Positions 19,430 through 56,075 of a stretch of 64,000 nt of DNA are shown here, one piece after another (the first letter of the stretch is position 1; each line of letters opens with the position of its first letter). The notes under the pieces were generated by a model, which searched no databases, was not told the origin of the DNA, and was given only the letters and a program-made list of their open reading frames with translations. A program made the position numbers and the translations under genes. This stretch comes from Thermoanaerobaculia bacterium (GTDB lineage Bacteria > Acidobacteriota > Thermoanaerobaculia > Multivoradales > Multivoraceae), in NCBI GenBank assembly GCA_963664405.1, contig OY761158.1, forward strand, positions 4,000,001-4,064,000, read 5' to 3'.

Positions 19430-20098
19430 ATGCGGTTCGAGGCCTACAGCCCGAAGCAGCGGCCGGAGGCTGAGATGGAGAGGCGTGCCGAGGACTTCTA
19501 CCGTCTCATGGACGGGCGGCGCAGCGTGCGCCACTTCTCAACCCGGCCGGTGGCTCGGGGTCTGGTCGAGACCGCCATCGTCACCGCCTCGACAGCCCCG
19601 TCCGGCGCCCATCGTCAGCCTTGGCGCTTCGTATGTGTCGACGACGACGAGATCAAGAGGCGTATTCGAGAAGCAGCCGAGGCCGAGGAGAGAAAGAACT
19701 ACGGGGGTCGCATGCCGCAGGAGTGGCGGGAGGCCGTCGAGCCGCTGGGTACCACGGCCGAGAAGCCCCATCTGGAGATCGCGCCGTGGCTTGTGGTCGT
19801 ATTTGAAGAGCTCTACGGCGTGGACGGGGAAGGCAATCGGCGCAAGAACTACTACGTCAAAGAGAGTGTCGGGATCGCTTGCGGGCTCTTCATCGCCGCG
19901 TTGCACAATATAGGGCTGGTGACTCTGACTCACACCCCGAGCCCGATGGGGTTCCTTTCAAAGATCCTGGGGTGCCCCGCGAACGAGCGCCCTTACATTC
20001 TCTTCCCGGTCGGCTATCCGGCTGCGGATGCGCAAGTACCCACGCTTCGCCGCAAGTCTCTTGCCGAGGTCGCGACCTGGAACCCCGGGACGGCCTAG
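19430..20098 (+). CDS. Nitroreductase superfamily, iodotyrosine deiodinase-like
   Basis: RRSVRHFS, TAPSGAHRQPW, EAAEAEERKNY, YVKESVGIACG and LTHTPSPM are characteristic of the IYD subgroup. Confidence 0.85.
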   Translation: MRFEAYSPKQRPEAEMERRAEDFYRLMDGRRSVRHFSTRPVARGLVETAIVTASTAPSGAHRQPWRFVCVDDDEIKRRIREAAEAEERKNYGGRMPQEWREAVEPLGTTAEKPHLEIAPWLVVVFEELYGVDGEGNRRKNYYVKESVGIACGLFIAALHNIGLVTLTHTPSPMGFLSKILGCPANERPYILFPVGYPAADAQVPTLRRKSLAEVATWNPGTA

Positions 20099-20272
20099 AC
20101 CAGCGTTTCCAAAGTCCGTGTACATAGGTCGAGGTCATTCTGTTCGCTGGCCAGGCGCGCCGACGCAGGCATATTGGGCAATATGTCGAGGAGCGCGGGG
20201 GCGCCCAGCCAACGCCGGCAGCGGGCAGAAGGGGCCGAGATATGTGCGCGAACTTTGGAAACGCTGGTCTAA
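20095..20272 (+). mobile_element. MITE-like element, end-family A, copy 1 (178 bp)
   Basis: TIR (C)TAGACCAGCGTTTCCAAAGT...ACTTTGGAAACGCTGGTCTA. Its ends carry the TAG stop codons of both convergent neighbours. A second copy is at 48684. Confidence 0.85.
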
Positions 20273-20994
20273 AGCTCGCTGAGCCAATCTCGGGCCAGGC
20301 GGCAGGACGGATTGAGCTCCAGTGCCCGCTGCCAGTCGGCACGGGCGTCTTCGCTTCGCCCCAGCTCGAAAAGCGCGCGACCTCGTAGAAGGAGAGCAGG
20401 CTCGAGGCTCGAGTCGATCTCCAGCGCGTGGTTCACCAACTCGAGTCCTCGTTCGAGATCCTTGGGACCGCGACCCGGCCGCAGCAGGTCGGGCTTGGCC
20501 GAGCTGACCCAAGCGCGGGCGTTGCTTCGATCGAGCTCGAGGGCGCGGGCCGCTGCGGACTCCATCCTGCTGCGGTACTTCTGTCCTCTGAACTTCGACC
20601 GGATGAGTGTACCGACTAGATCGGCACGGATGCGCTGTGTCTCCGAGGTCTCGCCGAGGTCGGCGAGAAGATCGAGGCCCTCTTGGGCCGCCGCGTCGAT
20701 GCGCTCGCCGATCTCTCTACGCAGTGACTGCTCCTCGGTCGGTGTTTCTTCGAAGTCGATGCGCTCGAGCTCGGCAACGAGGAGGGCCGCTTCGACACGA
20801 ACACGGTCGCCTCGGTCTCCTGAGGCCTGGATGCTCGGTGTGCGGAGAGCCTGAAGAGTGTCCTTCGCAGCCTCGAGGTCGTAGGTCTGACGAGCTGTGT
20901 GAATTCGCTTGGCTTGCTCCTCTAGGAAGTCGGTCGCGCCGGCTCCGAGGCTGCCGGCGCTAAGAAGAGCGGCTCCAAGGAACTGAGCCCTCAT
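20269..20994 (-). CDS. Tetratricopeptide repeat protein, probably exported
   Basis: Signal-like N-terminus, TPR motifs (ALELDRSNARAW; ARADWQRALELNP) and ATGA overlap with the MMPL gene. Confidence 0.7.
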   Translation of the reverse strand: MRAQFLGAALLSAGSLGAGATDFLEEQAKRIHTARQTYDLEAAKDTLQALRTPSIQASGDRGDRVRVEAALLVAELERIDFEETPTEEQSLRREIGERIDAAAQEGLDLLADLGETSETQRIRADLVGTLIRSKFRGQKYRSRMESAAARALELDRSNARAWVSSAKPDLLRPGRGPKDLERGLELVNHALEIDSSLEPALLLRGRALFELGRSEDARADWQRALELNPSCRLARDWLSEL

Positions 20995-23159: not shown

Positions 23160-23240
23160 GATCTTTTGCTCGGGCGATCGAGGCGGAGGAGGGGAGATTA
23201 TCGCGCCTCGTGATACCTTGCGCCGGCGGAGAGAGGTACC

Positions 23241-24287: not shown

Positions 24288-24289
24288 TC

Positions 24290-24970: not shown

Positions 24971-25427
24971 GCCGATTCGCCAGGGCGACATTCCGGGTGT
25001 GCAGACGAGGCATCGCTGCCTCTTGAGTGTGGGACCGCTGGAAGCGTGGGATTGGCTGACGGTCGCCGGCCGCCTCGAAGCCTGGCTGGCCCGGCGGGCG
25101 ACCTGCGAGCCCGGTGTCGGTGGGAGCCTGGTCTTAGAGCGGGAACGCGAGTCAGGAGAGGTTGTGGTGGAGACCGGCGTGATCCGTGCTTGGGAGCCCG
25201 GCTCGCTTCTGACCCTCGACTTCCGCTGTGACGATCCCGCCTGGGAGAGCACGACGCGGCTCGAGCTCACCCTGAGTACGACTGAGGAGGGGAGCGAGCT
25301 GATGCTCTTTCACGAGGGTTTTCAGCGACTGAGAATCTCTGCTTGTCTGACCCTCTGGGAGAGCTACCGCCGGCATTGGCCGCTGGCTCTGGCTAGGCTT
25401 GCCCAGGCGATCCGTGACTCCTCCTAG
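24963..25427 (+). CDS. SRPBCC/AHSA1 domain protein
   Basis: AWDWLT...LEAW, GVIRAWEPG, ELMLFHEGF and W..ALARL pattern. Confidence 0.75.
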   Translation: MFEPIRQGDIPGVQTRHRCLLSVGPLEAWDWLTVAGRLEAWLARRATCEPGVGGSLVLERERESGEVVVETGVIRAWEPGSLLTLDFRCDDPAWESTTRLELTLSTTEEGSELMLFHEGFQRLRISACLTLWESYRRHWPLALARLAQAIRDSS

Positions 25428-26725: not shown

Positions 26726-26750
26726 GGATTCCGGGCCCCTGACAAGGGCG

Positions 26751-26918
26751 CTAGTGGACCGTAACACTCGAACGTTTAGTGGCTGAGTGAGTCATTCGTG
26801 GTCGAGATCAAGGCGCGCTGACGCAGGCATATCGGGGACTATGTCGAGGAAGCGTAACGCAGAGATCGGCCGCGAGGGCCGCTCGGGCGCTAAACGTTTG
26901 GGTGTTACGGTCCACTAG
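26751..26918 (+). mobile_element. MITE-like element, end-family B, copy 1 (168 bp)
   Basis: TIR CTAGTGGACCGTAACAC...GTGTTACGGTCCACTAG. Differs from 55908-56075 at one base. Confidence 0.9.
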
Positions 26919-41590: not shown

Positions 41591-41947
41591 CTACGAGAAA
41601 GCGCACTTAGTTGGCTGCGAGTCGGTTTTTTGTCCCCGCGAGGCGTGACTCAGGGTGTGGCGCAGATAGTCGAGGTACCCCTCGGGGGGTGGCGTCGTGG
41701 GGAGTTCTCGGAGGATGGGGAGAAAGTAGGCGAGGGATCGGATGGGCTGGAGCTTTGGTAGGCGCGGATCTCGGCATGCGCGTCGGGCGGAGCCGAGGAG
41801 GAGGGCGGCCTGGAGGACGGTGAGAGGCAGGTCTTGGTCGAAGAGCTGGTCGACGATGACGCGGTCGCCGTGGTGGAAGCGGTGCGGGGTGTCGGGAAGG
41901 AGTCGATAGAGGCGGAGGAGCTGGCGCCGATAGTGGCTTCGGGTCAT
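41591..41947 (-). CDS. IS-borne hypothetical protein downstream of istB (118 aa)
   Basis: ATGA overlap with the istB stop. Helical protein with PIRSLAYFLP motif; its stop codon lies inside the terminal repeat. Confidence 0.7.
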   Translation of the reverse strand: MTRSHYRRQLLRLYRLLPDTPHRFHHGDRVIVDQLFDQDLPLTVLQAALLLGSARRACRDPRLPKLQPIRSLAYFLPILRELPTTPPPEGYLDYLRHTLSHASRGQKTDSQPTKCAFS

Positions 41948-42738
41948 GAGCGTCGTCGTGCTGCGCTCCGCCTTTTGGCGCGGTCCTTGGCCTTTTTTTC
42001 AGCAGCCTCCTTGGCCTCCTTGCGGCGATAGGAGTTAGCCTCGATCTTGACGATCTCGGCGTGGTGGGTGAGTCGATCGACGAGAGTGACGACGCAGGAG
42101 GCGTTGGGAAAGACCTCGGCCCATTCGGCGAAGGGCTTGTTGGTGGTGAGAAGAATGGGCTTGTTGCCGTATCTCCTGGAGACGACCTCGAAGAGGAGAT
42201 CCGCGTGGCGGTGGTCGTAGGAGAGATAGCCGAGCTCATCGATTGCCAAAAGCGAGGGTCGGGTGTATTTGGAGAGCCTTCTCTGGAGCGCCGAGGGGGT
42301 TTCCTGGACGGCGAGATCGTTGAGCATGTCGGAGGCGGTGACGAAGCTGGCGGTGGCCCCTCGTTGCAGCGCCTGGTAGAGGAGGTTCTTGGCAATCATG
42401 GTCTTGCCGACACCGTTGGGTCCGAGGAGGATGACGTTGGTGATGTCGTCGAGGAATTGGAGGGTGAGCAGATCCTGGATCTGCTCGCGGTCGATGCGCT
42501 GGGGCCAGGAGAAGTCGAAGTCGGCGATGCTCTTGAAGAGCCCGACGCGGCTGGTGCGGATGCGCCGTTCGAGGCTGCGCCGTTTGCGCTCGGCCTCTTC
42601 TTTGCGCAGCAGCTGTTCGAGCCAGGGCTGTTCTCGGTAGGTGCCCCAGTCGTCGACGAGGGCGTAGAAGCCGAGGGATCGGGCGAGCTCTCGTAGTGGT
42701 TCGTCAGGGATCGTTGGACTCTTCCTGGGTCGGGCCAT
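41944..42738 (-). CDS. istB: IS21 helper AAA+ ATPase IstB
   Basis: DFDFSW, GPNGVGKT, LLAIDELGY, TTNKPF and DRLTHHA. Confidence 0.95.
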   Translation of the reverse strand: MARPRKSPTIPDEPLRELARSLGFYALVDDWGTYREQPWLEQLLRKEEAERKRRSLERRIRTSRVGLFKSIADFDFSWPQRIDREQIQDLLTLQFLDDITNVILLGPNGVGKTMIAKNLLYQALQRGATASFVTASDMLNDLAVQETPSALQRRLSKYTRPSLLAIDELGYLSYDHRHADLLFEVVSRRYGNKPILLTTNKPFAEWAEVFPNASCVVTLVDRLTHHAEIVKIEANSYRRKEAKEAAEKKAKDRAKRRSAARRRS

Positions 42739-44212
42739 CGTCGTTGCCTCCAAGTTGGTCGTAGTCCTCGAGGTTGTGCGGTCTCACGGAGAGATCTCGC
42801 TGTTGGAGCTCCTGGCTGAGCGGCACCGGTAAAGCCGGGGGCTGACCGAGGCCGCGCTGGTGCCGTTCGAGTAGGAGCCGGACGGACTGGAATCGCGGTG
42901 CGTGGTTCAGGAGCGCTTCGCGCACGGCTTTGTCGAGTCGCTGGGGGCCGTACTGGCGCAGGAGTCGGAGCAGGCCGGCGGTCTGCGTTCCGAGGTTCTC
43001 GCCTCGCTCGGCGAGCTGCTGCATCAGCTCTTCGCATCGAGGCACAGCGGAAAACAGCCGATGGAAGCCCCGGTGTCGTCGGGCCCTGCGTTTGTGAGCG
43101 AGGAGCTCCTCGAGGTGTTGAGGATCGAGGATCTGCTCGCCCCGGGAGTACGAGCGAGGGTGCTCGGCGAGGAGCTCCTGGCCATCGAGGATCCGCACCC
43201 GATGCTCGCTGGCGAGGAGCGTGACGGTCCTCTGCACATGACTGTGCGGCACCGAGTAGTCGTTGAGGTCGAAGCGCACGATCGGCGTCTTTCTGACCTT
43301 GATCTCCAGTCGCAGGTCGGTTTCGAAGTCGTCTCCGGGAAGCTCAAGCAGTCGAGGTCGTTCCTGGGCCAGGGCGCTTTTCACGGTTCGCTGTCGGTCC
43401 TGCGGCCAGGGTCTGCGCTGCGACCTCTGGCACCATTCCAGGACCTGCCGATTCAGACGATCCAAATCGCTCACCGTTCGGGCGCCGAAGAACGAGCTTC
43501 GCAGGAAGCGGATTGCGCGCTCGACGCGGCCTTTCTCATTTCCCCGAGCCACCGCGGCGACGGTGGGAAGGAAGCCGTAGTGGCTGGCGAAATCGAGCAG
43601 CACGGGATGGAAGCGCACCGCGGTTCCCTGCCGCTCGATCACCGCGGTTCGCAGGTTGTCGTACAGAACGGTCCTGACGACGCCGTCGACGTAGTGGAAG
43701 GCCAGCTGGTGAGCGTGCAAGAAGGTTTCGAGACGAGTGTCGAGGGTGAAGTGCACGAAGACCGTGCGCGAGAACGACAGCACGAAGACGAAGGCATAGA
43801 GCCGACGATGTGCCCGGCCGACGCGGAGCCGACCGAAGTGGCCCCAGTCGACCTGCGCCTGCTCTCCTGGCAGCATGCGCAGCGAGAGAAACGCCTCGCG
43901 CTGGGGCTTCGGTCGCATCGAGGCCACCAGGTGGCGAAACTGATCCGGGCCTCCTGGATAGCCGCGCTCCACCACCATGGTGTAGAGACGGCTCGCCGGC
44001 AGTCGTGGGTAGGTCCCGAGCACCTGCTCGATGAACGGCAGGTAAGGATCGATCATCCTCCCTCGTCGCTGCTGGGGTAGCACGCCGGACTTCTCCAGCG
44101 CCCGGCGCACGGTTGAGGGGTGCAGCTGTAGCTGTCGAGCGATCGTGCCGACTTTCCACTTCTCGACCAGGAACAGACGACGGATCTCCCCGCGCAGCTG
44201 TGCGTCGATCAC
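42704..44212 (-). CDS. istA: IS21 transposase IstA
   Basis: N-terminal HTH, PGEQAQVDWG, VLYDN, KGRVERAIRF and NDYSVP. Confidence 0.95.
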   Translation of the reverse strand: MIDAQLRGEIRRLFLVEKWKVGTIARQLQLHPSTVRRALEKSGVLPQQRRGRMIDPYLPFIEQVLGTYPRLPASRLYTMVVERGYPGGPDQFRHLVASMRPKPQREAFLSLRMLPGEQAQVDWGHFGRLRVGRAHRRLYAFVFVLSFSRTVFVHFTLDTRLETFLHAHQLAFHYVDGVVRTVLYDNLRTAVIERQGTAVRFHPVLLDFASHYGFLPTVAAVARGNEKGRVERAIRFLRSSFFGARTVSDLDRLNRQVLEWCQRSQRRPWPQDRQRTVKSALAQERPRLLELPGDDFETDLRLEIKVRKTPIVRFDLNDYSVPHSHVQRTVTLLASEHRVRILDGQELLAEHPRSYSRGEQILDPQHLEELLAHKRRARRHRGFHRLFSAVPRCEELMQQLAERGENLGTQTAGLLRLLRQYGPQRLDKAVREALLNHAPRFQSVRLLLERHQRGLGQPPALPVPLSQELQQRDLSVRPHNLEDYDQLGGNDDGPTQEESNDP

Positions 44213-44216
44213 GCCC

Positions 44217-44612
44217 CTATCTCCGTCGGCAACGACGAAAGCTCGTTCGCACAAACTCTCGGCAGGCCTCTCCACACTGCATGCATCGCGGATTCCTCGG
44301 GTCGTAGCGCACTTCGCGCCTCGGAGTCTCGATCCGACACAGTGTCCTCCCCGAAGTACCGCCTGGGGTACCCTGATGCGTCACTTTCTCTGCCCGCTCG
44401 CGCTGGCGCCGACGGTAGCGGGCCTGACGGGCGGCATGACAATGCCGACCTCGGAGGCTTCGCTGGTACCGATGGCCGGCCGCCCGAGTCGATTCCCGAC
44501 GAGCCACCAGAGCACAAGCCCGGCAGTAACGCTGGCCACGGTCACAGTGCGAGCACAGCGAGATACGCCGACGGCATCGAGCACAGTCGAAGAGTCGGTA
44601 GTCCGGTCGCAT
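44217..44612 (-). CDS. IS-borne Cys-rich basic protein upstream of istA (131 aa)
   Basis: GGGAGG RBS; CARC...CSHCDRGQRYC..C and CMQCG motifs. Ends 4 nt before the istA start. Confidence 0.72.
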   Translation of the reverse strand: MRPDYRLFDCARCRRRISLCSHCDRGQRYCRACALVARRESTRAAGHRYQRSLRGRHCHAARQARYRRRQRERAEKVTHQGTPGGTSGRTLCRIETPRREVRYDPRNPRCMQCGEACREFVRTSFRRCRRR

Positions 44613-44976
44613 CGTCGCCTCCCATTCGACGACGACCCCGACTCTCTGCCATACTGCAAGCGCAGCTAATGCTGCGGTTTGGGGCAGAGCCCGGGGCGTT
44701 TTCTACTTCGCTTTCCCGGGCTCTCGCCGTCTCTGGTCGGCCTGCTCTATCAGAGCAGAGCCCGCACTGCAAAGCCCTACACCGACTCACGCATCTCTTC
44801 CGACCGCAAACACGCCGCCGGGACCACGCACCCGGACCGCCGTTCCGGCGGGATGATGCCGCCCTTCCTGAAGAAGGCCTAGCTTTCCCGCGGTCGCGAA
44901 GCCCTCAGCTCACTCCATCCCGGAAACTGCGCTCGCAGCCAACGGGATGCGCTTTCTCGCAGCCATCAACACCGGT

Positions 44977-46840: not shown

Positions 46841-48556
46841 ATGAAGCCCAGCAATCGGACAAGAATTTTCAGCCTCGCCCTAACTCTACTGGTTGGTGGG
46901 CTCGCGTGTTCGACGGATTCGCCTACGGAACCGGTCCAGACCCCGGCTCCGGGTGCCCCGGGTGGCGGTACACCTAGTGGCACGTGGAATATAAGCATTA
47001 CTTCGAACCGTTCTCAGCTTGAGGTTGACGGTCTGAATGCACGCATTAGCATTCGCGTTACCGATGCCGAGTCGGGCGCCCTCCCGCCTAACGGCGCGAG
47101 TATTTCGCTCGGTACGAGCCTTGGCGACTTCGAATCTGAGGGCAGCGGCATCCAGTCAGGCATCCTCGAGCTCTTCACAGGCAATGTTCAGGTTGCGCTT
47201 TTCCCCGGCAGCGAGGAGGGTACTGCGAGGCTGCAGGCTCAGCTCGAGGGCAGCGTCGGACAGCTGAACTTGCCGATCACGGCCGCCGGCGGCGACGAGC
47301 CCATTCCCACGGCCCTCTTCGTAGATCGGGTGGATCCAAGCTTCGGCAGTCCCGATGGCGGCGAGACGGTGAGAATCCTCGGCCAGGCTTTCGAGGAGCC
47401 GGTGCGCGTCTTCTTTGGCGGGGCTCCTGCTCAGGTTCAGTCGGTCAACTCTGGAACTATCCGTGTGATCACGCCGCGCAACGACACCGTGGACCTGGGC
47501 GATGTCCTTTCGGTCGACGTCGAGGTCCAAGTGAATGTCAACGAGGCGGAGCAGAGCTCCGATACCCTGGTTTCTGGCTTTACCTACACTCGCGGCGCCC
47601 TCGATCTCCAACCCGTGATCTTCTCCATCACACCGAACTCCGGGCCGAACGAGGGTGGCACGCGTGTCACCATCAACGGTGATGGCTTCTTGGCTCCGGT
47701 TCAGGTGCTCTTCGAGTCTCTCGAGGCTACGGTCGAGTCCGTTAGTCGGACCCAGATCGTGGTCTTGACTCCGGCAGCGACTGGCTTCGGGCAGGCGCTC
47801 CGGAACAGTCAGGTCAACGTGGTCGTGAGGAATCTCGAAAACGGGCTCACCTCCGATCCAGGTCTGTTCACGTACGGAGTGAGTCTCCTGGTCACCGCGG
47901 TAGACCCCAATACAGGCCCCTACTTCGGCGGGACCAACGTCACCATCTTTGGCCAGGGCTTTGACGAGCCTCTGGTTGTCGACTTCGGTACCGTGCGCCA
48001 GCAGGTGATCTCGGTCACTGGCACTGAGATTCTGGTGCGCACTGTCGGGTTGCTGGGTAGCGGAAGCTGCTCCAACTCGTCGCTGGGCTCTAACGTTACG
48101 AATCTGGAGACAGGTGAGACCGCTTCCGGGCCTCCGTTTATCTACCAGGAGATCCAGCTGAGTCCGTCCATTTCCGGAGTCTCGCCCTCACCGCTGAGGC
48201 AAGCGGGCGGGGTCGTGACCATCAGTGGGCGGAACTTCTTGGAGCCGATCGAGGTTACTTTCAACGATCGACCGGTGGAGATCACCAGCCTGTCCGAGAC
48301 ATCCATCACGGCCACGCTCCCTGAGATTCCCAACAGCGATCTCGACGCCGAAGATTGCAACGACAACGGCGACTCACAGGACGGCGAACGCTACATCACG
48401 ACGCCCTTCGATCTGGTTGTGGCGAACTCAGACACGGGTTGCTCCGACACCTTCTTGGTCAACGTGACCCCGAACAACACCAGCTGTCGGGATGACGTAG
48501 CGCCTGTCGAGGACGAGCCGACTCCGGTTCCGACTCCGACGACGGAGGCGCCCTAG
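46841..48556 (+). CDS. Lipoprotein with an Ig-like domain and about four IPT/TIG repeats
   Basis: GGLAC lipobox. Repeats VDPSFGSPDGGETVRILG, ITPNSGPNEGGTRVTING, VDPNTGPYFGGTNVTIFG and VSPSPLRQAGGVVTISG. Confidence 0.85.
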   Translation: MKPSNRTRIFSLALTLLVGGLACSTDSPTEPVQTPAPGAPGGGTPSGTWNISITSNRSQLEVDGLNARISIRVTDAESGALPPNGASISLGTSLGDFESEGSGIQSGILELFTGNVQVALFPGSEEGTARLQAQLEGSVGQLNLPITAAGGDEPIPTALFVDRVDPSFGSPDGGETVRILGQAFEEPVRVFFGGAPAQVQSVNSGTIRVITPRNDTVDLGDVLSVDVEVQVNVNEAEQSSDTLVSGFTYTRGALDLQPVIFSITPNSGPNEGGTRVTINGDGFLAPVQVLFESLEATVESVSRTQIVVLTPAATGFGQALRNSQVNVVVRNLENGLTSDPGLFTYGVSLLVTAVDPNTGPYFGGTNVTIFGQGFDEPLVVDFGTVRQQVISVTGTEILVRTVGLLGSGSCSNSSLGSNVTNLETGETASGPPFIYQEIQLSPSISGVSPSPLRQAGGVVTISGRNFLEPIEVTFNDRPVEITSLSETSITATLPEIPNSDLDAEDCNDNGDSQDGERYITTPFDLVVANSDTGCSDTFLVNVTPNNTSCRDDVAPVEDEPTPVPTPTTEAP

Positions 48557-48683
48557 GCTAGGGAAGTGTTGGAATAGTGATCTCGGCGCCCCGTGCGAGG
48601 ATGACTTCTCGTCCTCGAGCGGGGCGTCTCTCTTCGAGAGCGGATGGTTCCTTTTCGAACCCGTGATACACCGCGATCTTTGC

Positions 48684-48849
48684 CTAGACCAGCGTTTCCA
48701 AAGTTCGCGTACACATCTCGGCCCCTTCTGCCCGCTGGCGGTGTTACGCCTCCTCGATATATTGCCCAATATGCCTGCGTCGGCGCGCCTAGCCAGCGAA
48801 CAGAATGACCTCGAGCTATGCAGCCCGAACTTTGGAAACGCTGGTCTAG
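48684..48849 (-). mobile_element. MITE-like element, end-family A, copy 2 (166 bp, inverted relative to copy 1)
   Basis: Same TIR CTAGACCAGCGTTTCCAAAGT. The interior is a diverged reverse complement of 20095-20272. Confidence 0.87.
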
Positions 48850-48901
48850 AGTCATCTTCCCGCTAGACGCTCGTGGCAGTCGCTGCGTATACTCCAGTTG
48901 A

Positions 48902-49816
48902 ATGCGCAAGGGACTTCTAGCGTGCCTCCTTGTGCTCGCGCTCTTTGGTTGCGACAGCACGAGTCCAGTGGCGCCCGAGGGTGCCCTCGTCGACATTTCG
49001 GTGAGCCCTGACCGCATCACCTCTGATGGCGAGGCGGCAGTTACCGTTCTTGCTCGGAAGTCCACGGGCTTTCCCGTCAACCCCGGCACTGTCGTCTTCC
49101 TGAGTACTACCCGTGGCCTCATCGCCGAGCGCGGCGAGACGGATGAGACGGGCCGGGTACGGGCGACTCTCTACGGTAATGGCGCCGTCGGTACCGCAAC
49201 GGTGAAGGCGACTACAGGCGCGGCCGAAGACGCCGAAGTCGAGGTTCAGATCGGCATCTTCGCCGGATCGGTCACATTGCAGACCACGCCGTCGACAGTG
49301 GCTGAGACCGGCGGCACTATAGATCTTCTGGCCTTGGTTCGAGACGACTTGGGCGAGCCCCTCCCAGACGTGCTGGTCAATTTCACCAGCCAGATAGGTG
49401 TTCTCGAAACCGGGGGGGATTTTGTACGGACTGATGGAGGGGGTAGGGCGACAGATGTCCTCACCGTCGAGGAGGGAGAGCTCGACACTGTAAACGGCGA
49501 CACCTTCATGGTCGGAGTGGAGGTGTCGGGGAACGACGGAGCTCTACTCATTCGTGAGCAGACCGTCACCGTCCAGCGGCGGCCGATGGCCGACTTCACC
49601 ACCAGTGTCAGCGGCCTGACGGTGGTCTTCGACGACACCTCGACGGGACGCCCGACGAGCTGGAGATGGGAGTTCGGCGACGGCAACAGCAGTACGCTGC
49701 AGAATCCTTCCCACACTTATGCCGTGCCCGGCACCTACACAGTGACTCTGACTGCGCGCAATAGCCTGGGCGAGGACACGCGCAGCAAGATCGTCGCCGT
49801 CACCGGCAATAACTAG
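48902..49816 (+). CDS. Lipoprotein with invasin/Big_1-like domains and a C-terminal PKD domain
   Basis: LFGC lipobox, TDETGRVRATL, and WRWEFGDGNSSTLQNPSHTYAVPGTYTVTLT (PKD). Confidence 0.87.
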   Translation: MRKGLLACLLVLALFGCDSTSPVAPEGALVDISVSPDRITSDGEAAVTVLARKSTGFPVNPGTVVFLSTTRGLIAERGETDETGRVRATLYGNGAVGTATVKATTGAAEDAEVEVQIGIFAGSVTLQTTPSTVAETGGTIDLLALVRDDLGEPLPDVLVNFTSQIGVLETGGDFVRTDGGGRATDVLTVEEGELDTVNGDTFMVGVEVSGNDGALLIREQTVTVQRRPMADFTTSVSGLTVVFDDTSTGRPTSWRWEFGDGNSSTLQNPSHTYAVPGTYTVTLTARNSLGEDTRSKIVAVTGNN

Positions 49817-49979
49817 TACACGCGGCCATAAATACGGACACGTTTGGAGCGACGCTGCATCCTCTCCAGCAGCGTTGCGCTCCCTGCGGCGTACTGCCAG
49901 GTACGCCTCAGTCACGCGCCTTGCTGGCGAGGCGCTTCGTCGCTCGAAACGTACCCGTACTTATGGCCGCATGTACTAG
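49813..49979 (-). mobile_element. MITE-like element, end-family C (167 bp)
   Basis: Imperfect TIR CTAGTACACGCGGCCATAAATACGG / CCGTACTTATGGCCGCATGTACTAG. Begins on the stop codon of the PKD gene and shares its core with families A and B. Confidence 0.8.
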
Positions 49980-50053
49980 CCTTTCCGGACTCTCTCCTCG
50001 GGCGGGGGAGAGGTGGTGCAAACACGCCTGCTATAGTGAGCGGCCCCTTGCGG

Positions 50054-50713
50054 ATGGACAGCTCAGAAGAGGCGCTCGCCCACCTTCGTCGCCAGGTGCA
50101 GCGGCGTCCGGAGTCACCGGCAATGTTGCGGCTCGCAGAGCTGCTGCTGCGTCGTGGCGAGGCTGAGGACGCTCTCGCAACCTTGACGCGGGGTCTCGAG
50201 AATCGCCCGGGCCACGTTGCGGCGCTGGTTCTCAGGGGCAGATGCCTGCTGGCGCTCGAGCGACTCGACGAAGCCGGCGCCGAGCTCGAGTCTGTGCTCG
50301 CCGTGGATCCTACTCAACTCGTTGCCGCCAAACTTCTGGCGCAAGTCTGGCTTCGAGCGTCTGCAGTGGAGCGGGCGGGTGTGGCGGTCTCGAGATACGC
50401 TCACTTGCAGCCACTGGATCCGGACTTAGCGGCGTTCCAGCGGCAGCTAACGGCTTTGCGCAGGGATGCTCCTCCGAGCTCTGAGGAGGATCTCGGCGAC
50501 GGCCGTGCCGAAGAGCAAGGCGGCAGCAATGAACCGGGCTCGGCTTCCGGCGCGGGGCTGAAGACGGTGACGCTTGCGGAGCTCTATCTGCAGCAGGGCC
50601 ATGCCCGAGATGCCGCAGCCATGCTTCTCGAGATCCTGGACTCGGACCCGGCCAATGCCGCGGCCCAGGAGGCACTGATGCGCGCCCGAGGTGCACGACC
50701 CTACGCCGGCTGA
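50054..50713 (+). CDS. Tetratricopeptide repeat protein
   Basis: TPR helices and C-terminal TVTLAELYLQQGH motif. Confidence 0.75.
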   Translation: MDSSEEALAHLRRQVQRRPESPAMLRLAELLLRRGEAEDALATLTRGLENRPGHVAALVLRGRCLLALERLDEAGAELESVLAVDPTQLVAAKLLAQVWLRASAVERAGVAVSRYAHLQPLDPDLAAFQRQLTALRRDAPPSSEEDLGDGRAEEQGGSNEPGSASGAGLKTVTLAELYLQQGHARDAAAMLLEILDSDPANAAAQEALMRARGARPYAG

Positions 50714-50859
50714 CACTCGCCGCGATATAGTCCTGAGGTTCGCGCGCGCGCCGTTCTTGGCCGCTCTCCCAGCGGGAGTCGTCGCGGACAATACGAACCA
50801 GAACCCATCGCCGAGAGGCGTATTCAGAAGTTCCCGGAGACTTTGGAGGTAGCGACGTC

Positions 50860-51321
50860 GTGTTGACATTCGACCAGATGAAAGAGCTGATTCAGCTAGT
50901 AGGCGGGAACAAACTCGGTGGGGTGGAGGTACGCCAAGGCGACTTTCACTTTCGAGTCAGCGCACGCGGTGAGGGTGCTGCGCCGCTGGCAGGGACTGTC
51001 GCCTCAGAGGGTGCTGCGCCGCCAGTGACGACGGACGATGCCGCGATCGCGGCCGAAACTCCGGTCGATCAAGAGGAAACGGGGCATGTGCTGAAGTCCC
51101 CGATCGTCGGCACTTTCTATTCCTCCCCCAGCCCAGACGCTGAGCCCTACGTTCGGGTTGGAGATCGGGTGGAGAAGGGCCAGGTTGTTTGCATTGTCGA
51201 GGCGATGAAGCTCATGAACGAGATTGAAGCGGACGCGAGCGGGGTCGTATCGAGAATACTTCCCGAGAACGCACAGCCCGTGGAGTTTGGCGCGCCTCTG
51301 TTCAGGATCGAGACCGACTGA
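50860..51321 (+). CDS. accB: Acetyl-CoA carboxylase biotin carboxyl carrier protein
   Basis: SPIVGTFY and EAMKLMNEI biotinylation motif. Confidence 0.95.
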
Positions 51322-51339
51322 TTCCGCCTCGTCCAAACT

Positions 51340-52674
51340 ATGTTCGACAAGATCCTGATCGCGAATCGCGGTGAGATCGCTCTCCGGATCATACTGGCGT
51401 GTCGGGAGCTCGGCATTCACACCGTGGCCGTCCACAGCACGGCTGACGAGAATAGTCTGCACGTTACTTTCGCCGACGAGGACGTCTGCATCGGCCCCCC
51501 GCCAGCTCAGGAGAGTTATCTCAACATTTCTTCTTTGATCTCGGCGGCGGAGATAACGGGAGTAGAAGCGGTTCATCCGGGCTACGGCTTCCTCGCGGAG
51601 AATGCTCACTTCGCCGAGGTGCTCGAAGAGTGCCGACTCACCTGGATCGGTCCTCGGCCTGAGACCATCCGGCAGATGGGAGACAAGGCTCGCGCGAGGC
51701 GGACGGCGGCGGCCGCAGGTGTCCCGATCCTGCCCGGCTCAGCGGAGCCACTCACCGGTCCCGAGGAGGCGCGAGCCGTAGCAGAAGAGATCGGATACCC
51801 GGTCATTCTCAAAGCTTCAGCGGGTGGAGGTGGACGCGGCATGCGCATCGTCACCTCTGCCGTGCAGTTGGAGGCGCAATTTGGGACCGCCCAGGTCGAG
51901 GCGGCGAGGGCTTTCGGCGACGGCTCTCTGTATATGGAGAAGTACCTTGTCGAGCCGCGACACATCGAGGTGCAGGTCCTCGCCGATCAGCATGGAAACC
52001 AGATTCATCTCGGAGAGCGCGAATGCTCGATTCAGCGCCGCCATCAGAAGCTGATCGAGGAGTCTCCCGCACCTCGACTCGATCCTGCTGTTCGCTCTCA
52101 AATCACCGAGGCGGCCCTTCGCCTGGTCTCGGAGGTCGACTATCAGAACGCGGGCACGGTCGAGTTCCTTCTGGATGTCGACGGCAAGTTCTATTTCATG
52201 GAGATGAACACGCGAATTCAGGTGGAGCATCCGGTAACCGAGATGGTCACGGGTATCGACCTGGTGAAGGAGCAGATTCGCATTGCCGCCGGTGAGAAGC
52301 TGAGCATGACCTCGAGCCCTGAGCTACGCGGTCATGCGATCGAGTGCCGGATCAACGCCGAGCATCCTCGTACTTTCGTTCCCAGCGCGGGTCGTCTAGA
52401 GACCTTCCACACGCCTGGCGGCCCCGGTATACGGGTGGACACCCACAGCTACGAGGGCTATGACTTCCCTCCCTACTACGATTCCCTGATCGCCAAGGTC
52501 ATCGCTTTTGGTGGCGATAGGGCCGAGGCCATCGCGCGGATGAGCCGGGCGCTCGAATTCTTCGAGATCCAGGGTGTGCACACATCGCTGCCGCTGCATC
52601 GCACCGTTCTCGACAATCCGGACTTCGTCGCCGGGGCGTTGTCGACTCGTCTCATGGAGCGCATCCTAGGGTGA
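51340..52674 (+). CDS. accC: Acetyl-CoA carboxylase biotin carboxylase
   Basis: [24 protein letters not shown] and [10 protein letters not shown]. Confidence 0.96.
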
Positions 52675-53846
52675 GTAGGGCGGCGGCGCGCCTCGATCGG
52701 GCGCAGGTCCCCGATCTCTACGCGATCGCGGACGCGGGGGTGCTTGGTGTCCCAGGCTTGCCCTCGGCGGTGGGCACGATGGCGGACTCCGGAGTCCGCT
52801 GGATCCAGTTGCGCGCCAAGGAAGCCGGCGACGCTGACCTATGCGTCGCGATCGAGGGCTGCCTCGAGCGAGCCGAGGCAAGCGGCGCCACCATCTGGCT
52901 CAACGACCGTCCAGACCTGGCGGCTCTCTATTCGGTCCAAGGAGTGCATCTCGGTCAAGATGACCTACCTCCCGAGGCGGCGCGGAAGGTTGTTGGTGAG
53001 TCGACCTGGATCGGGCTCTCGACTCACGATCTCGATCAGGTGAGAGCTGCCGATGCCGACCCGGCCGTGGATCTGGTTGCTCTCGGACCGATCTTTGCCA
53101 CCACCAGCAAGGCGAATCCGGACCCTGTGGTCGGGCTGGAGGCGCTGTCAGCGGCGCGTGAGCTCACGGAGAAGCCTCTGGTCGCAATCGGGGGTGTCGA
53201 GCTCGGTAATCTGTGCCTGACGTTGGCCTCAGGAGCCGATTCTGCAGTCGTGCTCGGTGCGATATGCAAGGGCGATATCGCGAGCAATTCCCGACGGCTG
53301 CTGCGGGCCCTTGGCAGCACACACTTCCGCTCCGACCGGCTGATCTACCTTACCGGCTTCATGGGCGCCGGCAAGAGCTCTGTAGGGCGTTCTCTGAGCG
53401 ATCGGCTCGGTGTTCCGCTGCTGGATCTCGACGACGAGATCGAGCAGCGTGGAGGAGCCTCGATCTCGGCTCTTTTTCGTCGTCTTGGCGAAGACGGGTT
53501 TCGGGAGCTTGAGGCGGCGGTACTGGAGTCCTGCAGCGCTCTCGAGGTCTGTGTCGTCGCCACCGGCGGCGGCATCGTCGAGCGCGCGCCAAACATCGAC
53601 CTGATGCTGAGATCCGGGACTGTCGTCTGGCTCGATCCCGACTTCTCGACCCTGGTGGGACGCCTCCTAGCTGCACCCGAGGGCCGACCCCTATTCGTCA
53701 GTACGGAACAGGCGCTCTCGCTTTACGAGTCGCGCCTGGCGGGCTATCGACGCTGTCACCTGCGAGTCTCCGTGGGGGCGGACGACACCGCCGAGGACGT
53801 TAGCGATCGTCTCGTGGACCGCCTGGAGACCTCGTGCGCTACTTGA
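52671..53846 (+). CDS. Fused thiamine-phosphate synthase (ThiE) and shikimate kinase (AroK)
   Basis: N-half: [33 protein letters not shown]-half: [30 protein letters not shown]. Single open frame. Confidence 0.85.
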
Positions 53847-54574
53847 TCCTTTCGGATATCCACGGCAACCTGGACGCGCTTCTTGCCGTGCTTCGGCGGG
53901 TTCGAAGAAAGCGATTCGATTCGATCGTCCTGCTCGGGGACCTCGTTGGCTACGGAGCCGCGCCGAACCAAGTTCTCGACACCGTGCGGGAGCTCAAAGG
54001 AGAAGTTCACGTCTTGCGAGGCAACCACGACAAGGTAGCTGCGGGGCTCGAGGAGGGTCTCGGCTTCAACGTCATCGCGCTGACCTCGGCTCGTTGGACC
54101 CAAGAACATTTGAGCGCGACGAATCGCCGCTTTCTCGAGCGGCTTCCTGTCGGGCCGCTCCACTTCGACGGCTTCCTCGCGTGTCACGGCTCTCCACAGA
54201 ACGAGGACACCTATGTATTCACCGAGAGAGAGGCGGTCGACGTTTTCCGCGGTTCCGATTTCCCGCTTTGCTTCTTTGGACACACCCACATCGCCTGTTG
54301 CTTCAGCTACGAGGGAGCTCACGTAGAAGCCAGGCTGCTGCAGGGTAAGCAAGGAGTCCTTGATCTCGTTCCTGGAGTGCGCTACTTCATCAACCCTGGA
54401 GCGATCGGCCAACCTAGAGATCGAGATCCACGAGCGGCTTTTGCGATCTATGACAGTGACAAAAGGCAGGTGAGCTGGGCTCGTACCTCTTACCCCATAA
54501 CTAAGGCACAGAAGAGAATTGTGCGTGCCGGTCTGCCAGTTGTCCTGGCCGAGCGGCTGGCACTCGGCAGGTAA
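53834..54574 (+). CDS. Metallophosphoesterase family protein
   Basis: SDIHGN, GDLVGYG, GNHD, GHTH and NPGAIGQPRD. Confidence 0.9.
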   Translation: MRYLILSDIHGNLDALLAVLRRVRRKRFDSIVLLGDLVGYGAAPNQVLDTVRELKGEVHVLRGNHDKVAAGLEEGLGFNVIALTSARWTQEHLSATNRRFLERLPVGPLHFDGFLACHGSPQNEDTYVFTEREAVDVFRGSDFPLCFFGHTHIACCFSYEGAHVEARLLQGKQGVLDLVPGVRYFINPGAIGQPRDRDPRAAFAIYDSDKRQVSWARTSYPITKAQKRIVRAGLPVVLAERLALGR

Positions 54575-54600
54575 GAGGCGCCCGGCGCCTTTCGGGCCCC

Positions 54601-55908
54601 CTATCCGCCGGGTGCTAGAAGCAGCGAGACGGAGTCGCCGTCCGAGACTTCTGCCTCGGCAGCGAGGTCCTCGACGTCTGTAGTGGAGGCGCTGCCATCG
54701 CTATCGAGTCGCGCCGAGAGCAGACCGCTGGTCGGCAGCGGTCTGCCCAACATTGAGTCGCGCTGGTCCAGGTGCACATCGAGCGGAAAAGCTGGCGAAT
54801 CGATTCTCCTTACCGCCGCGGGTGGGCCTGGTTCGGGGGTGCGCAGGAAGACGAAGAGCACGGCTCCGGAGGGGATCGCCGCCGCCGAGGGGACTTCGAT
54901 CCGAGCACTGAACTCGGGGCCGCTAACGGCCGCGGTGCTCAACTGCGGCGGCGGAGAAGACAGAATCTCGTCGGCGTCTGCCCCGGCCTCCGCCATCGAC
55001 ACGAGCTGCTGCAAGCCGGGGTGGGCGCCCCCGGAGGCTTCGAGACCCACTCGCCAATCCTCGATGGCGGCTTCTCTGTCCCCCTCACGCATCTTGGCTA
55101 TGCCGCGCACCAGACGCGCGCTGATGAAGCGAGGCTCCTGGGCGAGAGCTTGGTCGAGTAACTCGATAGCTTGTTCCATATCCCCCATCGTCAGGCGGAC
55201 CAGACCCTGAAAGTAGAGACCGTCGACATCGCCGGGACGCTGCTCGAGAAGAATCTCGCTCTGGGTGTACGCTTCAAAGAAGAGGCCTTCGAGAACATAG
55301 ACCTCGGTAAGCGCCTTGCGAGCGTCGATGTCGCCGGGATTCTGCTCCAGCCGCGCCAGGAGCGAGGTTGCCCTCGCCCGAGCCTGAAGAGAGAGCTGTT
55401 CGATGGCCGGGTGATTAGTCTCTCCGAGGTTGCTATTTCCGGCCATTGGCGGGGTCTCGACGGGTGCCGGTGTCGCGTCGCGACCGGCCCAGAAGACGAG
55501 AGCGCCGATGAGAGCGGCACTAGCGACACCCATGGCGAATCCGAGGAGCGCCGACTTCCTGCCTGCTGGCCGAGGCTCGTCGGTGCTCGGTTTGTGCTTG
55601 CTCTCTCGTGACCCCGTCAGTGGAGATTTGACCCCGATCTCGTCCAACTGTTTGAGGACCCGCGCGGCGGCGAGCTCCAACTCGCCCCTGTCGACGTCGT
55701 CGAGCTCTTCATCGCTCGCTCCCTGCAGCCGCTTGTAGATGTCGTCTCGGCGAAGCTCGAGGTCGGTCGCGAGCAGGCGAAGATCTGCAGAGCCTTTCCC
55801 CTCTGAGCGTTTGCGGCTCGCCGCGCTGCGAAGTCTCAGCGCGGCGATGGCACCGACGGCGAGACCGATGGCGAGGATGACGATCCCGGGAAGAAAGGAT
55901 GTGCCCAC
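54601..55908 (-). CDS. ccmI: Cytochrome c biogenesis TPR protein (CcmI/CycH-like)
   Basis: Two TM segments, TPRs and a C-terminal GPPAAVRR...FPL...ARLDSDG domain. Last gene of the ccm operon. Confidence 0.75.
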   Translation of the reverse strand: MGTSFLPGIVILAIGLAVGAIAALRLRSAASRKRSEGKGSADLRLLATDLELRRDDIYKRLQGASDEELDDVDRGELELAAARVLKQLDEIGVKSPLTGSRESKHKPSTDEPRPAGRKSALLGFAMGVASAALIGALVFWAGRDATPAPVETPPMAGNSNLGETNHPAIEQLSLQARARATSLLARLEQNPGDIDARKALTEVYVLEGLFFEAYTQSEILLEQRPGDVDGLYFQGLVRLTMGDMEQAIELLDQALAQEPRFISARLVRGIAKMREGDREAAIEDWRVGLEASGGAHPGLQQLVSMAEAGADADEILSSPPPQLSTAAVSGPEFSARIEVPSAAAIPSGAVLFVFLRTPEPGPPAAVRRIDSPAFPLDVHLDQRDSMLGRPLPTSGLLSARLDSDGSASTTDVEDLAAEAEVSDGDSVSLLLAPGG

Positions 55909-56075
55909 TAGTGGACCGTAACACTCGAACGTTTAGTGGCTGAGTGAGTCATTCGTGGTCGAGATCAAGGCGCGCTGACGCAGGCATATCGGGGACTATG
56001 TCGAGGAAGCGTAACGCAGAGATCGGCCGCGAGGGCCGCTCAGGCGCTAAACGTTTGGGTGTTACGGTCCACTAG
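55908..56075 (+). mobile_element. MITE-like element, end-family B, copy 2 (168 bp)
   Basis: Near-identical to 26751-26918. Sits between the ccmH stop and the ccmI start. Confidence 0.9.

What the first reader, a model, noticed from the sequence alone, without database searches (positions are those of the whole stretch)
20095..56075. Three unrelated CTAG-ended MITE families carry the same structured core, with strand-specific G-U pairing
Seen in sequence: five elements of 166-178 bp (A at 20095 and 48684, B at 26751 and 55908, C at 49813) have three different terminal repeats but one shared central module. A: CCAGGCGCGCCGACGCAGGCATATTGGGCAATATGTCGAGGAG. B: CAAGGCGCGCTGACGCAGGCATATCGGGGACTATGTCGAGGAAGCGTAACGC. 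C (minus strand): CAAGGCGCGTGACTGAGGCGTACCTGGCAGTACGCCGCAGGGAGCGCAACGC. The apical stem covaries (GCATA/TATGT versus GCGTAC/GTACGC). Each element can fold as a long rod. The arm mismatches I checked by hand are G-T on the core strand and A-C on the other strand (4 of 4 in the C outer arm, 3 in B, 2 in A). Inference: the single-stranded fold of one polarity is under selection, which an ordinary dsDNA cut-and-paste MITE would not require. This suggests a structured RNA or ssDNA module spread with interchangeable transposon-like ends. I do not recognise a named family, but cannot exclude one.
Basis: partly seen in the sequence, partly recalled or inferred. Interest (0 to 1): 0.8.

Follow-up and report, generated by a model that had tools for sequence, protein, structure and literature searches.

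The report
Shared folded core in IS630-type MITEs
Hundreds of small jumping-DNA elements in this genome, and many in other bacterial phyla, carry different transposon ends around one conserved, base-pair-covarying hairpin core that folds well on only one strand, so a single-stranded form of the element seems to matter for how it spreads.

Summary
The five elements are TA-duplicating, CTAG-targeting MITEs of IS630/Tc1-mariner type. The genome (6.78 Mb) holds 275 core copies, and 220 of them are clean elements in 7 families plus 2 singletons, nearly all about 164 bp. Between families the core is 80% identical; the TIRs are 56-59% identical, against about 51% for shuffled sequence.

The core is an irregular hairpin: P2, a purine-rich internal loop, then P3. 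Covariation is strong (score 0.472 against 0.135 in shuffles, 0 of 500 reaching it) and was reproduced in an independent sample.

Arm mismatches on the core strand are G-U, G-A or G-G; A-C and pyrimidine-pyrimidine mismatches are rare. The core strand is more stable than its complement in 8 of 8 families, with RNA or DNA parameters.

The core occurs in 53 of 151 sampled genomes of the phylum and in records labelled as several other phyla. There is no Rfam match and I found no paper on it.

TIRs of 5 of 8 families resemble ends of IS630-family insertion sequences, so "unrelated" is overstated.

Function is unresolved. Copies show no sense bias to neighbouring genes and no extra conservation of the core, which favours a role in the element's own propagation.

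The parts
20096..20271 (+). Element A1 (family F0, 173-nt subtype with an extra small hairpin in the 3' half of the core), including both TA copies. The element proper is 20098-20269.
   Evidence: the flanks CTAG and CTAA show that only TA is duplicated
20145..20209 (+). Core of A1 (model R1 match, 39.6 bits). The core starts with CCAGG at 20151.
26752..26917 (+). Element B1 (family F1), including both TA copies. The element proper is 26754-26915.
26803..26867 (+). Core of B1 (R1 match, 69.4 bits)
48685..48848 (-). Element A2 (family F0), including both TA copies. The element proper is 48687-48846, with the core strand on the minus strand.
48734..48798 (-). Core of A2 (R1 match, 61.9 bits). 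It starts with CTAGG, a variant that itself creates a CTAG target.
49814..49978 (-). Element C (family F4), including both TA copies. The element proper is 49816-49976. Its TIR matches the ends of the genome's own IS630-family IS at 22 and 21 of 34 positions.
49865..49929 (-). Core of C (R1 match, 52.6 bits). Its P3 is GGCGUAC/GUACGCC, with G-C in place of the usual G-U.
55909..56074 (+). Element B2 (family F1), including both TA copies. The element proper is 55911-56072.
55960..56024 (+). Core of B2 (R1 match, 69.4 bits)

Best explanation
The five elements belong to a large superfamily of IS630/Tc1-mariner-type MITEs. They duplicate TA, prefer CTAG targets, and have 25-35-nt TIRs that are diverged relatives of the ends of DDE_3-transposase insertion sequences.

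The constant part is a roughly 55-nt central module on one strand. From the outside in it consists of:
- a short helix P1b with a 3' AAC bulge;
- a 5-bp helix P2 of free sequence;
- a purine-rich internal loop, 5' GA(C/G)GCA opposite 3' GA(G/C)GA, with tandem G-A next to P2 and a covarying C-G/G-C pair;
- a 7-bp helix P3, usually with G-U as its second pair, closed by a G-rich loop.

Shown here: base pairing of the module and of the arms is selected on that one strand.

Inferred: the selection acts on the copies that propagate, not on each insertion. I read the module as a cis-acting part of the element's own life cycle, working as a folded single strand. The most likely form is a fold-back of single-stranded DNA, or a transcript, that brings the two TIRs together and offers a conserved recognition surface to a host or transposase factor. 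That would make these MITEs good substrates for whichever IS630 transposase matches their ends. The ends are swapped or drift to follow different transposases, while the core is kept.
For: MITE and IS630 identity:
- 220 of 275 core copies have TA plus a TIR matching at >=11 of 14 positions. They fall into families of 115, 32, 21, 20, 13, 9 and 8 copies plus 2 singletons, nearly all about 164 bp.
- Where a flank is not CTAG, only TA is repeated.
- TIRs of 5 of 8 families match IS630-family IS ends at 21-24 of 34 positions. Shuffles gave a mean of 10.7 and a maximum of 20 in 9,600 trials.
- Those ISs encode an HTH ORF plus a DDE_3 ORF.

Structure under selection:
- A1 alignment, 81 cores: 85.6% of cells paired against 64.9% in shuffles; covariation 0.472 against 0.135 (0 of 500 as high); slid partners at most 0.111.
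- P3 is 95.6% paired, with 6 of 7 pairs showing double changes. P2 has 4 of 5 such pairs. The loop pair reads C-G 65, G-C 13, unpaired 3.
- An independent sample (A2, 40 hits from 28 genomes) gave 80.4% paired and 0.442 against 0.145.

One strand only:
- The core strand is 8-37 kcal/mol more stable with RNA parameters and 4-15 kcal/mol with DNA parameters, in 8 of 8 families.
- Family-level arm mismatches. Own genome: G-U 35, G-A/A-G 22, G-G 4, against A-C 4, U-C 1, C-C 1. Other genomes: G-U 40, G-A/A-G 44, G-G 12, against A-C 12, U-C 5, C-C 2.

The core is the constrained part:
- Identity between families is 0.80 for the core, 0.59-0.61 for the arms and 0.56-0.59 for the TIRs; shuffled sequence gives about 0.51.
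- The same core sits between other TIRs in 13 of 41 relatives, in 53 of 151 genomes of the phylum sample, and in records labelled Acidobacteriota, Gemmatimonadota, Myxococcota, Bdellovibrio, Geobacteraceae, Brocadiaceae, Planctomycetia and Omnitrophota.

Selection on propagating copies rather than on each insertion:
- Singleton substitutions are equally dense in TIR (0.0065), arms (0.0058) and core (0.0052 per site).
- There is no sense bias to genes: 55 sense against 68 antisense between tandem genes, and 26 against 43 where the element abuts a stop codon.

Other support:
- Elements of 274-280 bp in other genera carry two cores, always pointing towards each other, so each strand has one sense core. 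For the 3 such elements folded, the two strands are equally stable. Two cores were seen in 12 of 28 loci.
- A 2,704-bp F0 element with cargo sits at two different CTAG sites, so F0 ends were used after the cargo arrived.
Against: - No step of IS630/Tc1-mariner transposition is known to need a single strand. This is established knowledge of the family, not tested here.
- None of the 11 IS630-type loci examined carries the core (0 of 2 own; 0 of 9 others). The transposase therefore does not need it for its own element.
- 26 of 53 core-bearing genomes in the sample show no DDE_3 gene, and the association is only modest (odds ratio 2.2, related genomes not independent).
- Families A, B and F5 have no matching IS among the three IS types I compared.
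- The singleton test has little power (210 singletons) and does show a mild excess of changes to G-U (48 against 29, p=0.04). Some selection on individual copies is therefore not excluded.
- Most of the A1 alignment was gathered with a pattern that fixed the conserved loop letters and the G and U of the P3 wobble pair. Conservation of those letters is partly built in; P2, the rest of P3 and the arms were free.
- No transcript or ssDNA intermediate was observed.
Confidence: 0.45

Rival explanations
1. Host-level cis-acting RNA. The MITEs are co-transcribed with neighbouring genes. The rod and its core act as an mRNA 3'-end stabiliser or as an RNase III/E processing site, as proposed for Correia and ERIC elements. 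In this reading the core is kept because the host benefits.
For: - 244 of 275 copies lie between my crude ORF calls, and they are enriched between convergent genes (88) over divergent ones (33).
- 77 of 220 elements sit directly on a called gene's TAG stop codon, so many must lie in 3' UTRs.
- Two-core elements give a sense core whichever way they are transcribed.
- Precedents are described in the Delihas review (PMC2229807; passages read).
Against: - There is no sense bias, and if anything the reverse: 55 sense against 68 antisense between tandem genes, and 26 against 43 at stop codons (p=0.05).
- The core is not more conserved than the TIRs among copies.
- No intrinsic-terminator-like site was found in the 3 elements scanned.
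- A host benefit does not explain why the same core travels with many different ends across phyla.
Confidence: 0.2
2. Self-expressed small structured RNA. The element has its own promoter and makes a sense-core RNA that acts in trans, for example as a ribozyme, a protein sponge or a regulator. The MITE ends serve only as its vehicle.
For: - Conserved unpaired purines, tandem G-A motifs and a mostly conserved G-U pair are typical of RNAs that bind a partner.
- Strand specificity without co-orientation to host genes would fit transcription from the element itself.
Against: - No sigma-70-like promoter was found in the three elements scanned. This scan is weak and does not cover other promoter types.
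- Any promoter in one arm would be mirrored in the other arm.
- There is no match to any Rfam ribozyme or sRNA family.
Confidence: 0.12
3. No function. The shared core is common descent of one young MITE lineage, or homogenisation between copies, and the strand asymmetry is a mutational bias such as C-to-T changes on one strand.
For: - The families in this genome share partly homologous inner arms.
- Cores of A, B and F8 are nearly identical within the genome, as recombination between families would produce.
- C-to-T changes on one strand would produce G-U.
Against: - Compensatory double changes occur in 16 of 22 pairs, including free-sequence P2, in cores from several phyla. Two cores of a single element have different but paired P2 sequences.
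- The core is 80% identical where the TIRs are at background level.
- The excess of G-A and G-G over U-C and C-C would need a second, opposite mutational bias.
- The asymmetric bulge and loops are kept, which arm-to-arm conversion would erase.
Confidence: 0.08
4. REP/REPIN-like element. The core is a single-stranded DNA hairpin recognised and moved by a Y1 (HUH) transposase of the RAYT kind, and the two-core forms correspond to REPINs.
For: - The genome has 13 Y1_Tnp matches, 12 over Pfam's cut-off.
- The features fit: a strand-specific hairpin, hundreds of copies, and inverted doublets in other genera.
- REPINs also show hairpin-preserving changes (PMC3116915; I saw only the search listing and the start of the abstract).
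Against: - Only 1 of 10 Y1_Tnp loci has a core within 1.5 kb, about what chance gives (expected 1.3).
- The elements have TA duplications and long TIRs that match IS630-family IS ends, which REPs lack.
Confidence: 0.03

Closest known systems
RUP of Streptococcus pneumoniae (MITE thought to be moved by IS630-Spn1)
   Same: It is a small non-coding element with TA target sites and TIRs like those of an IS630-family IS, present in about a hundred or more copies (review PMC2229807, passages read). Here there is a TA duplication and IS630-like TIRs in 5 of 8 families.
   Different: RUP is one family with one kind of end in one species. Here many kinds of end surround one covarying core that is found across phyla.
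Correia/NEMIS and ERIC elements (MITEs whose RNA hairpins affect neighbouring transcripts)
   Same: They are rod-like folds of the whole element when transcribed, located in intergenic regions (PMC2229807).
   Different: For ERIC the orientation to the gene decides the effect. Here I see no sense bias. I also know of no report for those elements of a discrete conserved apical module shared between families; that statement is from recall, not from a search.
REP/REPIN elements with RAYT transposases
   Same: They are strand-specific hairpins with structure-preserving changes and inverted doublets, and are thought to act as single strands (PMC3116915, listing only).
   Different: REPs have no TIRs and no TA duplication, and they flank their RAYT gene. 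Here the cores do not flank the Y1 genes.
'Solibacter-1' and 'Soil-1' motifs of Weinberg et al. 2010
   Same: Table 1 of PMC2864571 (passages read) lists them as candidate structures of doubtful RNA status from an acidobacterium and from soil. Neither was sent to Rfam. Either could be this element.
   Different: I cannot tell.
Integron attC sites
   Same: They are single-stranded DNA hairpins in which the fold, extrahelical bases and one strand matter, rather than the sequence (discussed in PMC5737381).
   Different: By inspection, there are no RYYYAAC/GTTRRRY boxes and no cassette arrays, and the elements have TIRs and a TA duplication.

Membership tests
IS630/Tc1-mariner-derived MITE | TA target-site duplication | tested here: met
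   220 of 275 copies have TA on both sides of a TIR matching at >=11 of 14 positions. Where one flank is not CTAG (for example A1, with CTAG and CTAA), only TA is shared.
IS630/Tc1-mariner-derived MITE | TIRs like those of an IS630-family insertion sequence encoding a DDE_3 transposase | tested here: met
   Met for 5 of 8 families, at 21-24 of 34 positions against a shuffle maximum of 20. It holds for family C, but not for families A, B and F5 against the 3 IS types compared. The ISs encode HTH and DDE_3 ORFs.
IS630/Tc1-mariner-derived MITE | Small, non-coding, multicopy | tested here: met
   Elements are about 164 bp. The genome has 275 core copies. Loop lengths vary by 1-3 nt between families.
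IS630/Tc1-mariner-derived MITE | Mobilised in trans by the transposase | not testable with these tools
   Only indirect evidence exists: nested insertions, and a 2,704-bp F0 composite present at two different sites. No empty site was found in the laid contigs.
Any Rfam 15 family | Score at or above the family's gathering threshold | tested here: not met
   There were 0 matches in the window at gathering level. In E-value mode the only hits were far sub-threshold plant MIR918 and MIR1437 hairpins on element C, and nothing on A or B.
REP/REPIN with RAYT | The repeats flank the Y1 transposase gene; no TIR and no target duplication | tested here: not met
   1 of 10 Y1_Tnp loci has a core within 1.5 kb, at chance level. 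TIRs and a TA duplication are present.
Kink-turn RNA motif | A helix, then a 3-nt bulge, then tandem G-A/A-G | tested here: not met
   The tandem G-A lies directly on P2 without a bulge. The third loop letter pairs across the loop, reading C-G 65, G-C 13 and unpaired 3 of 81. The consensus of the motif is recalled, not taken from a call.
Correia/ERIC-type RNA-acting MITE | An orientation-dependent effect on the neighbouring transcript, or RNase III/E cleavage | not testable with these tools
   No RNA run holds the stretch. Orientation counts show no sense preference.

The most novel reading that the evidence does not exclude
A DDE (IS630-type) MITE superfamily multiplies through a strand-specific fold-back of single-stranded DNA at the replication fork, or of ssDNA entering the cell. 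The hairpin rebuilds a double-stranded TIR pair with both element ends side by side. The conserved core is the recognition and nucleation module for that fold, and it has been passed between different IS630 lineages and across phyla as a mobile structured module. This would be a single-strand pathway for a transposase family thought to work only on duplex DNA.
Probability: 0.15. Interest if true: 0.9.

Novelty: new variant of a known kind. Interest (0 to 1): 0.7.

Why it matters
In MITEs the ends are normally the conserved part and the interior drifts. Here the reverse holds. One covarying, strand-specific module is kept while the ends change, in hundreds of copies per genome and in at least a third of the sampled genomes of a major soil phylum.

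This gives a concrete, testable case for an old open question: why MITEs outnumber their parent elements, and whether a single-stranded fold-back takes part in their amplification.

It also adds a widespread structured motif that is missing from Rfam. Such a motif will otherwise confuse RNA-motif and repeat annotation in Acidobacteriota and neighbouring phyla.

Tried and rejected
- RNA evidence: no RNA holder was listed for window 47000-56900. The four runs laid are DNA-like contigs that simply break at the three MITEs. They show no contig joining across an element, so there is no empty site and no strand information.
- Pattern scan of viral contigs: 0 hits.
- blastn of a core against plasmids: only a 31-nt chance-like match.
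- Sigma-70 promoter and terminator scans of three elements: 0 sites.
- Taking the outermost pair of an MFE fold to delimit elements in foreign loci was too noisy. I replaced it with a search for flanking inverted repeats, which found them for 96 of 102 cores not at a contig edge.
- A fuzzy-regex TIR scan timed out and was replaced by blastn-short.
- Core inside IS630 elements: 0 of 11 loci.
- Core as the REP of the Y1 genes: rejected.
- Kink-turn, attC, hammerhead and CsrA-site readings were rejected by inspecting the alignment.
- A resemblance of the 5' half of the core to a stretch of 16S rRNA was noticed from memory only and was not tested.
- Papers: searches found no description of this core. 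One search was run only to locate PMC5737381.
Full report
**Observation.** Each is bounded by TA within CTAG, or CTAA at the right end of A1. Each has terminal inverted repeats and measures 160-172 bp between the TA copies. The three quoted core strings are present exactly. A covariance model of the core built later finds these five places in the window at E<=1.2e-8, and otherwise only two weak hits at E~0.03.

**Census in the genome.**
- The window is positions 4,000,001-4,064,000 of a single 6.78-Mb contig with 62.6% G+C.
- A profile of the core finds 275 copies, 141 on the plus strand and 134 on the minus strand.
- 220 of them have TA plus a TIR matching at 11 or more of 14 positions.
- These cluster into families of 115, 32, 21, 20, 13, 9 and 8 copies plus two singletons. 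All are about 164 bp except one 195-bp family and one 211-bp singleton.
- The other 55 copies are mostly truncated elements, elements carrying nested insertions, or a short sixth type without clear ends.

**Anatomy.** Every family folds as a rod with the core at its tip. On an alignment of 81 non-redundant cores from this genome, its relatives and other phyla, the structure reads from the outside in:
- a short helix P1b, followed on the 3' side by an AAC bulge;
- P2, 5 bp of essentially free sequence;
- an internal loop, 5' GA(C/G)GCA opposite 3' GA(G/C)GA;
- P3, 7 bp, closed by a G-rich loop.

The counts:
- 85.6% of cells are paired, against 64.9% in shuffles.
- The covariation score is 0.472 against 0.135 (0 of 500 shuffles as high), and at most 0.111 when partners are slid.
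- P3 is 95.6% paired, with double changes in 6 of 7 pairs. P2 has double changes in 4 of 5 pairs.
- The third letters of the two loop strands flip together: C-G in 65 rows, G-C in 13, unpaired in 3.
- Next to P2 the loop can form tandem G-A pairs. The same 5'-GA/3'-AG motif recurs in the proximal arms of several families. This explains most of the unpaired cells in P1: 35 and 44 of 81 rows in the two middle pairs.

One caution. About three quarters of A1 came from a pattern scan that fixed the loop letters and the G and U of the second P3 pair. Their conservation (G-U in 77 of 81) is therefore partly built in.

An independent set confirms the structure. It consists of 40 model hits from 28 genomes of an evenly drawn phylum sample, and the alignment was fitted to the model:
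- 80.4% of cells paired; covariation 0.442 against 0.145.
- Loop pair: C-G 29, G-C 8, U-A 1, none unpaired.
- Second P3 pair: G-U in 20 of 38, with 10 not paired.

**One strand.**
- The core strand is more stable than its complement in 8 of 8 family representatives. The difference is 8-37 kcal/mol with RNA parameters and 4-15 kcal/mol with DNA parameters.
- In the arms outside the core, family-level mismatches read on the core strand are as follows. Seven families of this genome: G-U 35, G-A or A-G 22, G-G 4, against A-C 4, U-C 1, C-C 1. Fourteen families from other genomes: G-U 40, G-A or A-G 44, G-G 12, against A-C 12, U-C 5, C-C 2.
- Some of these positions are inherited between related families, so the counts overstate the number of independent events. 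The bias is nevertheless also present in arms that are not alike.
- A single mutational bias could explain the G-U excess but not the purine-purine excess as well.

**Relation to IS630.**
- The genome has two copies of a 1.24-kb IS with CTAG/TA ends and split HTH and DDE_3 ORFs.
- Another genome of the phylum, G108, has two further IS630-family types.
- Over the first 34 nt, MITE family C matches the resident IS at 22 and 21 positions. F3 and F6 match one G108 IS at 21-24. F2 and F8 match the other at 22. The shuffle mean is 10.7 and the shuffle maximum 20.
- Families A, B and F5 found no partner among these three IS types.
- The ends are therefore diverged IS630-type TIRs, not unrelated sequences, and different families probably answer to different transposase lineages.
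- None of the 11 IS loci contains the core.
- In the phylum sample, 27 genomes have both the core and DDE_3, 26 the core only, 31 DDE_3 only, and 67 neither. The odds ratio is 2.2 and p=0.02, but related genomes are not independent. These tallies include the unpublished genome G088.

**What is conserved, and where.**
- Between the family consensuses of this genome, the core is 80% identical, the arms 59-61% and the TIRs 56-59%. Shuffled sequence gives about 51%.
- BLAST with element A finds only its interior, in multiple copies, in 13 of 41 related genomes including the window's own genome.
The records are labelled Acidobacteriota (several classes), Gemmatimonadota, Myxococcota, Bdellovibrio, Geobacteraceae, Brocadiaceae, Planctomycetia and Omnitrophota. 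Most are metagenome bins, so single records could be mis-binned, but several bins carry the core on several contigs.
- 96 of 102 of those cores that are not at a contig edge are flanked by inverted repeats. Element sizes peak near 160 and 260-280 bp. Many have TA/CTAG ends with TIRs like those seen here.
- In 12 of 28 loci of the phylum sample there are two cores about 110 nt apart, always pointing towards each other.
- I folded three such elements. They are TA-flanked, 274-280 bp and Y-shaped, with one sense core per strand. Their two strands are equally stable: -211.5/-209.9, -195.1/-188.1 and -188.1/-190.7 kcal/mol. The two cores of one element have different but paired P2 sequences.

**Tests bearing on function.** Gene positions come from my own crude ORF and GC3 caller, which gave 4,775 ORFs covering 81% of the genome.
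- Relative to the core strand, copies lie between convergent genes 88 times, between tandem genes in sense 55 times and in antisense 68 times, between divergent genes 33 times, and inside called ORFs 31 times.
- 77 of 220 elements sit directly on a called TAG stop codon, whereas only 10% of all CTAG sites do. Of the 69 that abut one gene, 26 are sense and 43 antisense (p=0.05).
- The core strand has the sequence of the lagging strand in 164 copies and of the leading strand in 111 (p=0.002).
- Both mild biases go against exposing the well-folding strand, in host mRNA or on the lagging-strand template. I read them as orientation-dependent loss, not as function.
- Singleton substitutions among copies are equally dense in TIR, arms and core (0.0065, 0.0058 and 0.0052 per site). 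Changes to G-U slightly outnumber changes to A-C, 48 to 29.
- No RNA run was listed and the laid contigs gave no strand information (see Tried and rejected).

**Reading.**
- Shown: an IS630-type MITE superfamily, and a covarying core and arms selected to pair on one strand. The core is the constant part across families and phyla.
- Inferred: because individual copies decay evenly and ignore gene orientation, the constraint acts on the copies that go on to multiply. The module therefore serves the element's own propagation as a folded single strand.
- A fold-back model of MITE amplification from single-stranded DNA has been proposed for eukaryotic MITEs. It would fit, but no single-strand step is known for IS630-family transposases.
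- The rivals are weighed in their own section: host-acting RNA, a self-expressed RNA, a REP/RAYT-like system, and neutral descent.

**Literature and databases.**
- Rfam 15 gives nothing at gathering level. In E-value mode it gives only far sub-threshold matches of element C to plant MITE-derived miRNA hairpins.
- Searches found no description of this core. One search only located PMC5737381.
- Read as passages: the Delihas review on bacterial MITEs (PMC2229807), the MITE census PMC11602168, Weinberg 2010 (PMC2864571) and Weinberg 2017 (PMC5737381).
- Weinberg 2010 lists 'Solibacter-1' and 'Soil-1' as doubtful motifs that were never sent to Rfam. Their description is in a supplement I could not open, so a partial precedent cannot be excluded.

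**Verdict.** The kind of element is known. The shared covarying single-strand core, its spread across ends and phyla, and the two-core forms are, as far as I could check, undescribed.

Noticed in passing
window 41944-44275 (minus strand), with repeat ends near 41.3 and 45.0 kb: This is an IS21-family element, with IstB (269 aa) and IstA (523 aa; rve plus the Mu transposase C-terminal domain). Window 44000-44976 is 100% identical to three places in an otherwise distant 4.6-Mb genome (G188). In that genome, other matched stretches of the window are only 64-68% identical. The region also has 20-60 times the depth of its surroundings in four metagenome runs.
   Followed up: partly
G000:C1:6272418-6275121 and 6758845-6761548 (loci L003, L004): Two copies of a 2,704-bp family-A element carry a cargo in the apical loop of the core: an IS91-family Y2 transposase (398 aa) and a tyrosine recombinase (299 aa). 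The flanks differ at the two sites, so the composite seems to have moved using the MITE ends.
   Followed up: partly
whole genome G000: CTAG is strongly depleted: 7,502 sites against about 23,200 expected from base composition. 35% of the clean MITEs sit exactly on a called TAG stop codon, and the element's first G restores that stop.
   Followed up: partly
start of the family-A core, e.g. window 48792-48796 (minus strand), and about 30 copies elsewhere in G000: The first letters of the core vary between CCAGG, CTAGG and CAAGG (minor-allele share 0.47). The CTAGG form creates a new CTAG target. A cluster of 30 family-A copies includes several with an extra insert of about 80 nt at exactly that place. 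C-to-T change within CCAGG resembles deamination at a Dcm-type site; that link is recalled, not tested.
   Followed up: no
G000, 13 places (loci L184-L193 and three more): There are thirteen matches to the Y1 (IS200-like/RAYT-like) transposase domain inside unusually long open frames of 303-443 aa. They are not associated with the core, and their own repeats were not sought.
   Followed up: partly
whole genome G000: The core strand has the sequence of the lagging strand in 164 copies and of the leading strand in 111 copies (p=0.002). The GC-skew extremes are at 2.75 and 6.77 Mb, giving unequal replichores.
   Followed up: partly
loci L145, L147-L150, L156, L159, L161, L162, L164, L166 (other genera of the phylum): Two cores lie about 110 nt apart and point towards each other. 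The three elements that were delimited and folded (L149, L150, L156) are TA-flanked, 274-280 bp and Y-shaped, with one sense core per strand and equal predicted stability of both strands.
   Followed up: partly
window 20190-20216 (element A1), and family F5 in G000: A subtype of family A (173 nt between the TA copies in at least 10 copies) and the 195-bp family F5 carry an extra small G+C-rich hairpin between the loop and the 3' strand of P2. This turns the core into a three-way junction.
   Followed up: no
window 49803-49988: Element C gives far sub-threshold Rfam matches to the plant miRNA precursor families MIR918 and MIR1437: 51.6 and 42 bits against cut-offs of 268 and 168. I believe these families are themselves MITE-derived hairpins (recalled). 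The match reflects the long rod, not kinship.
   Followed up: no
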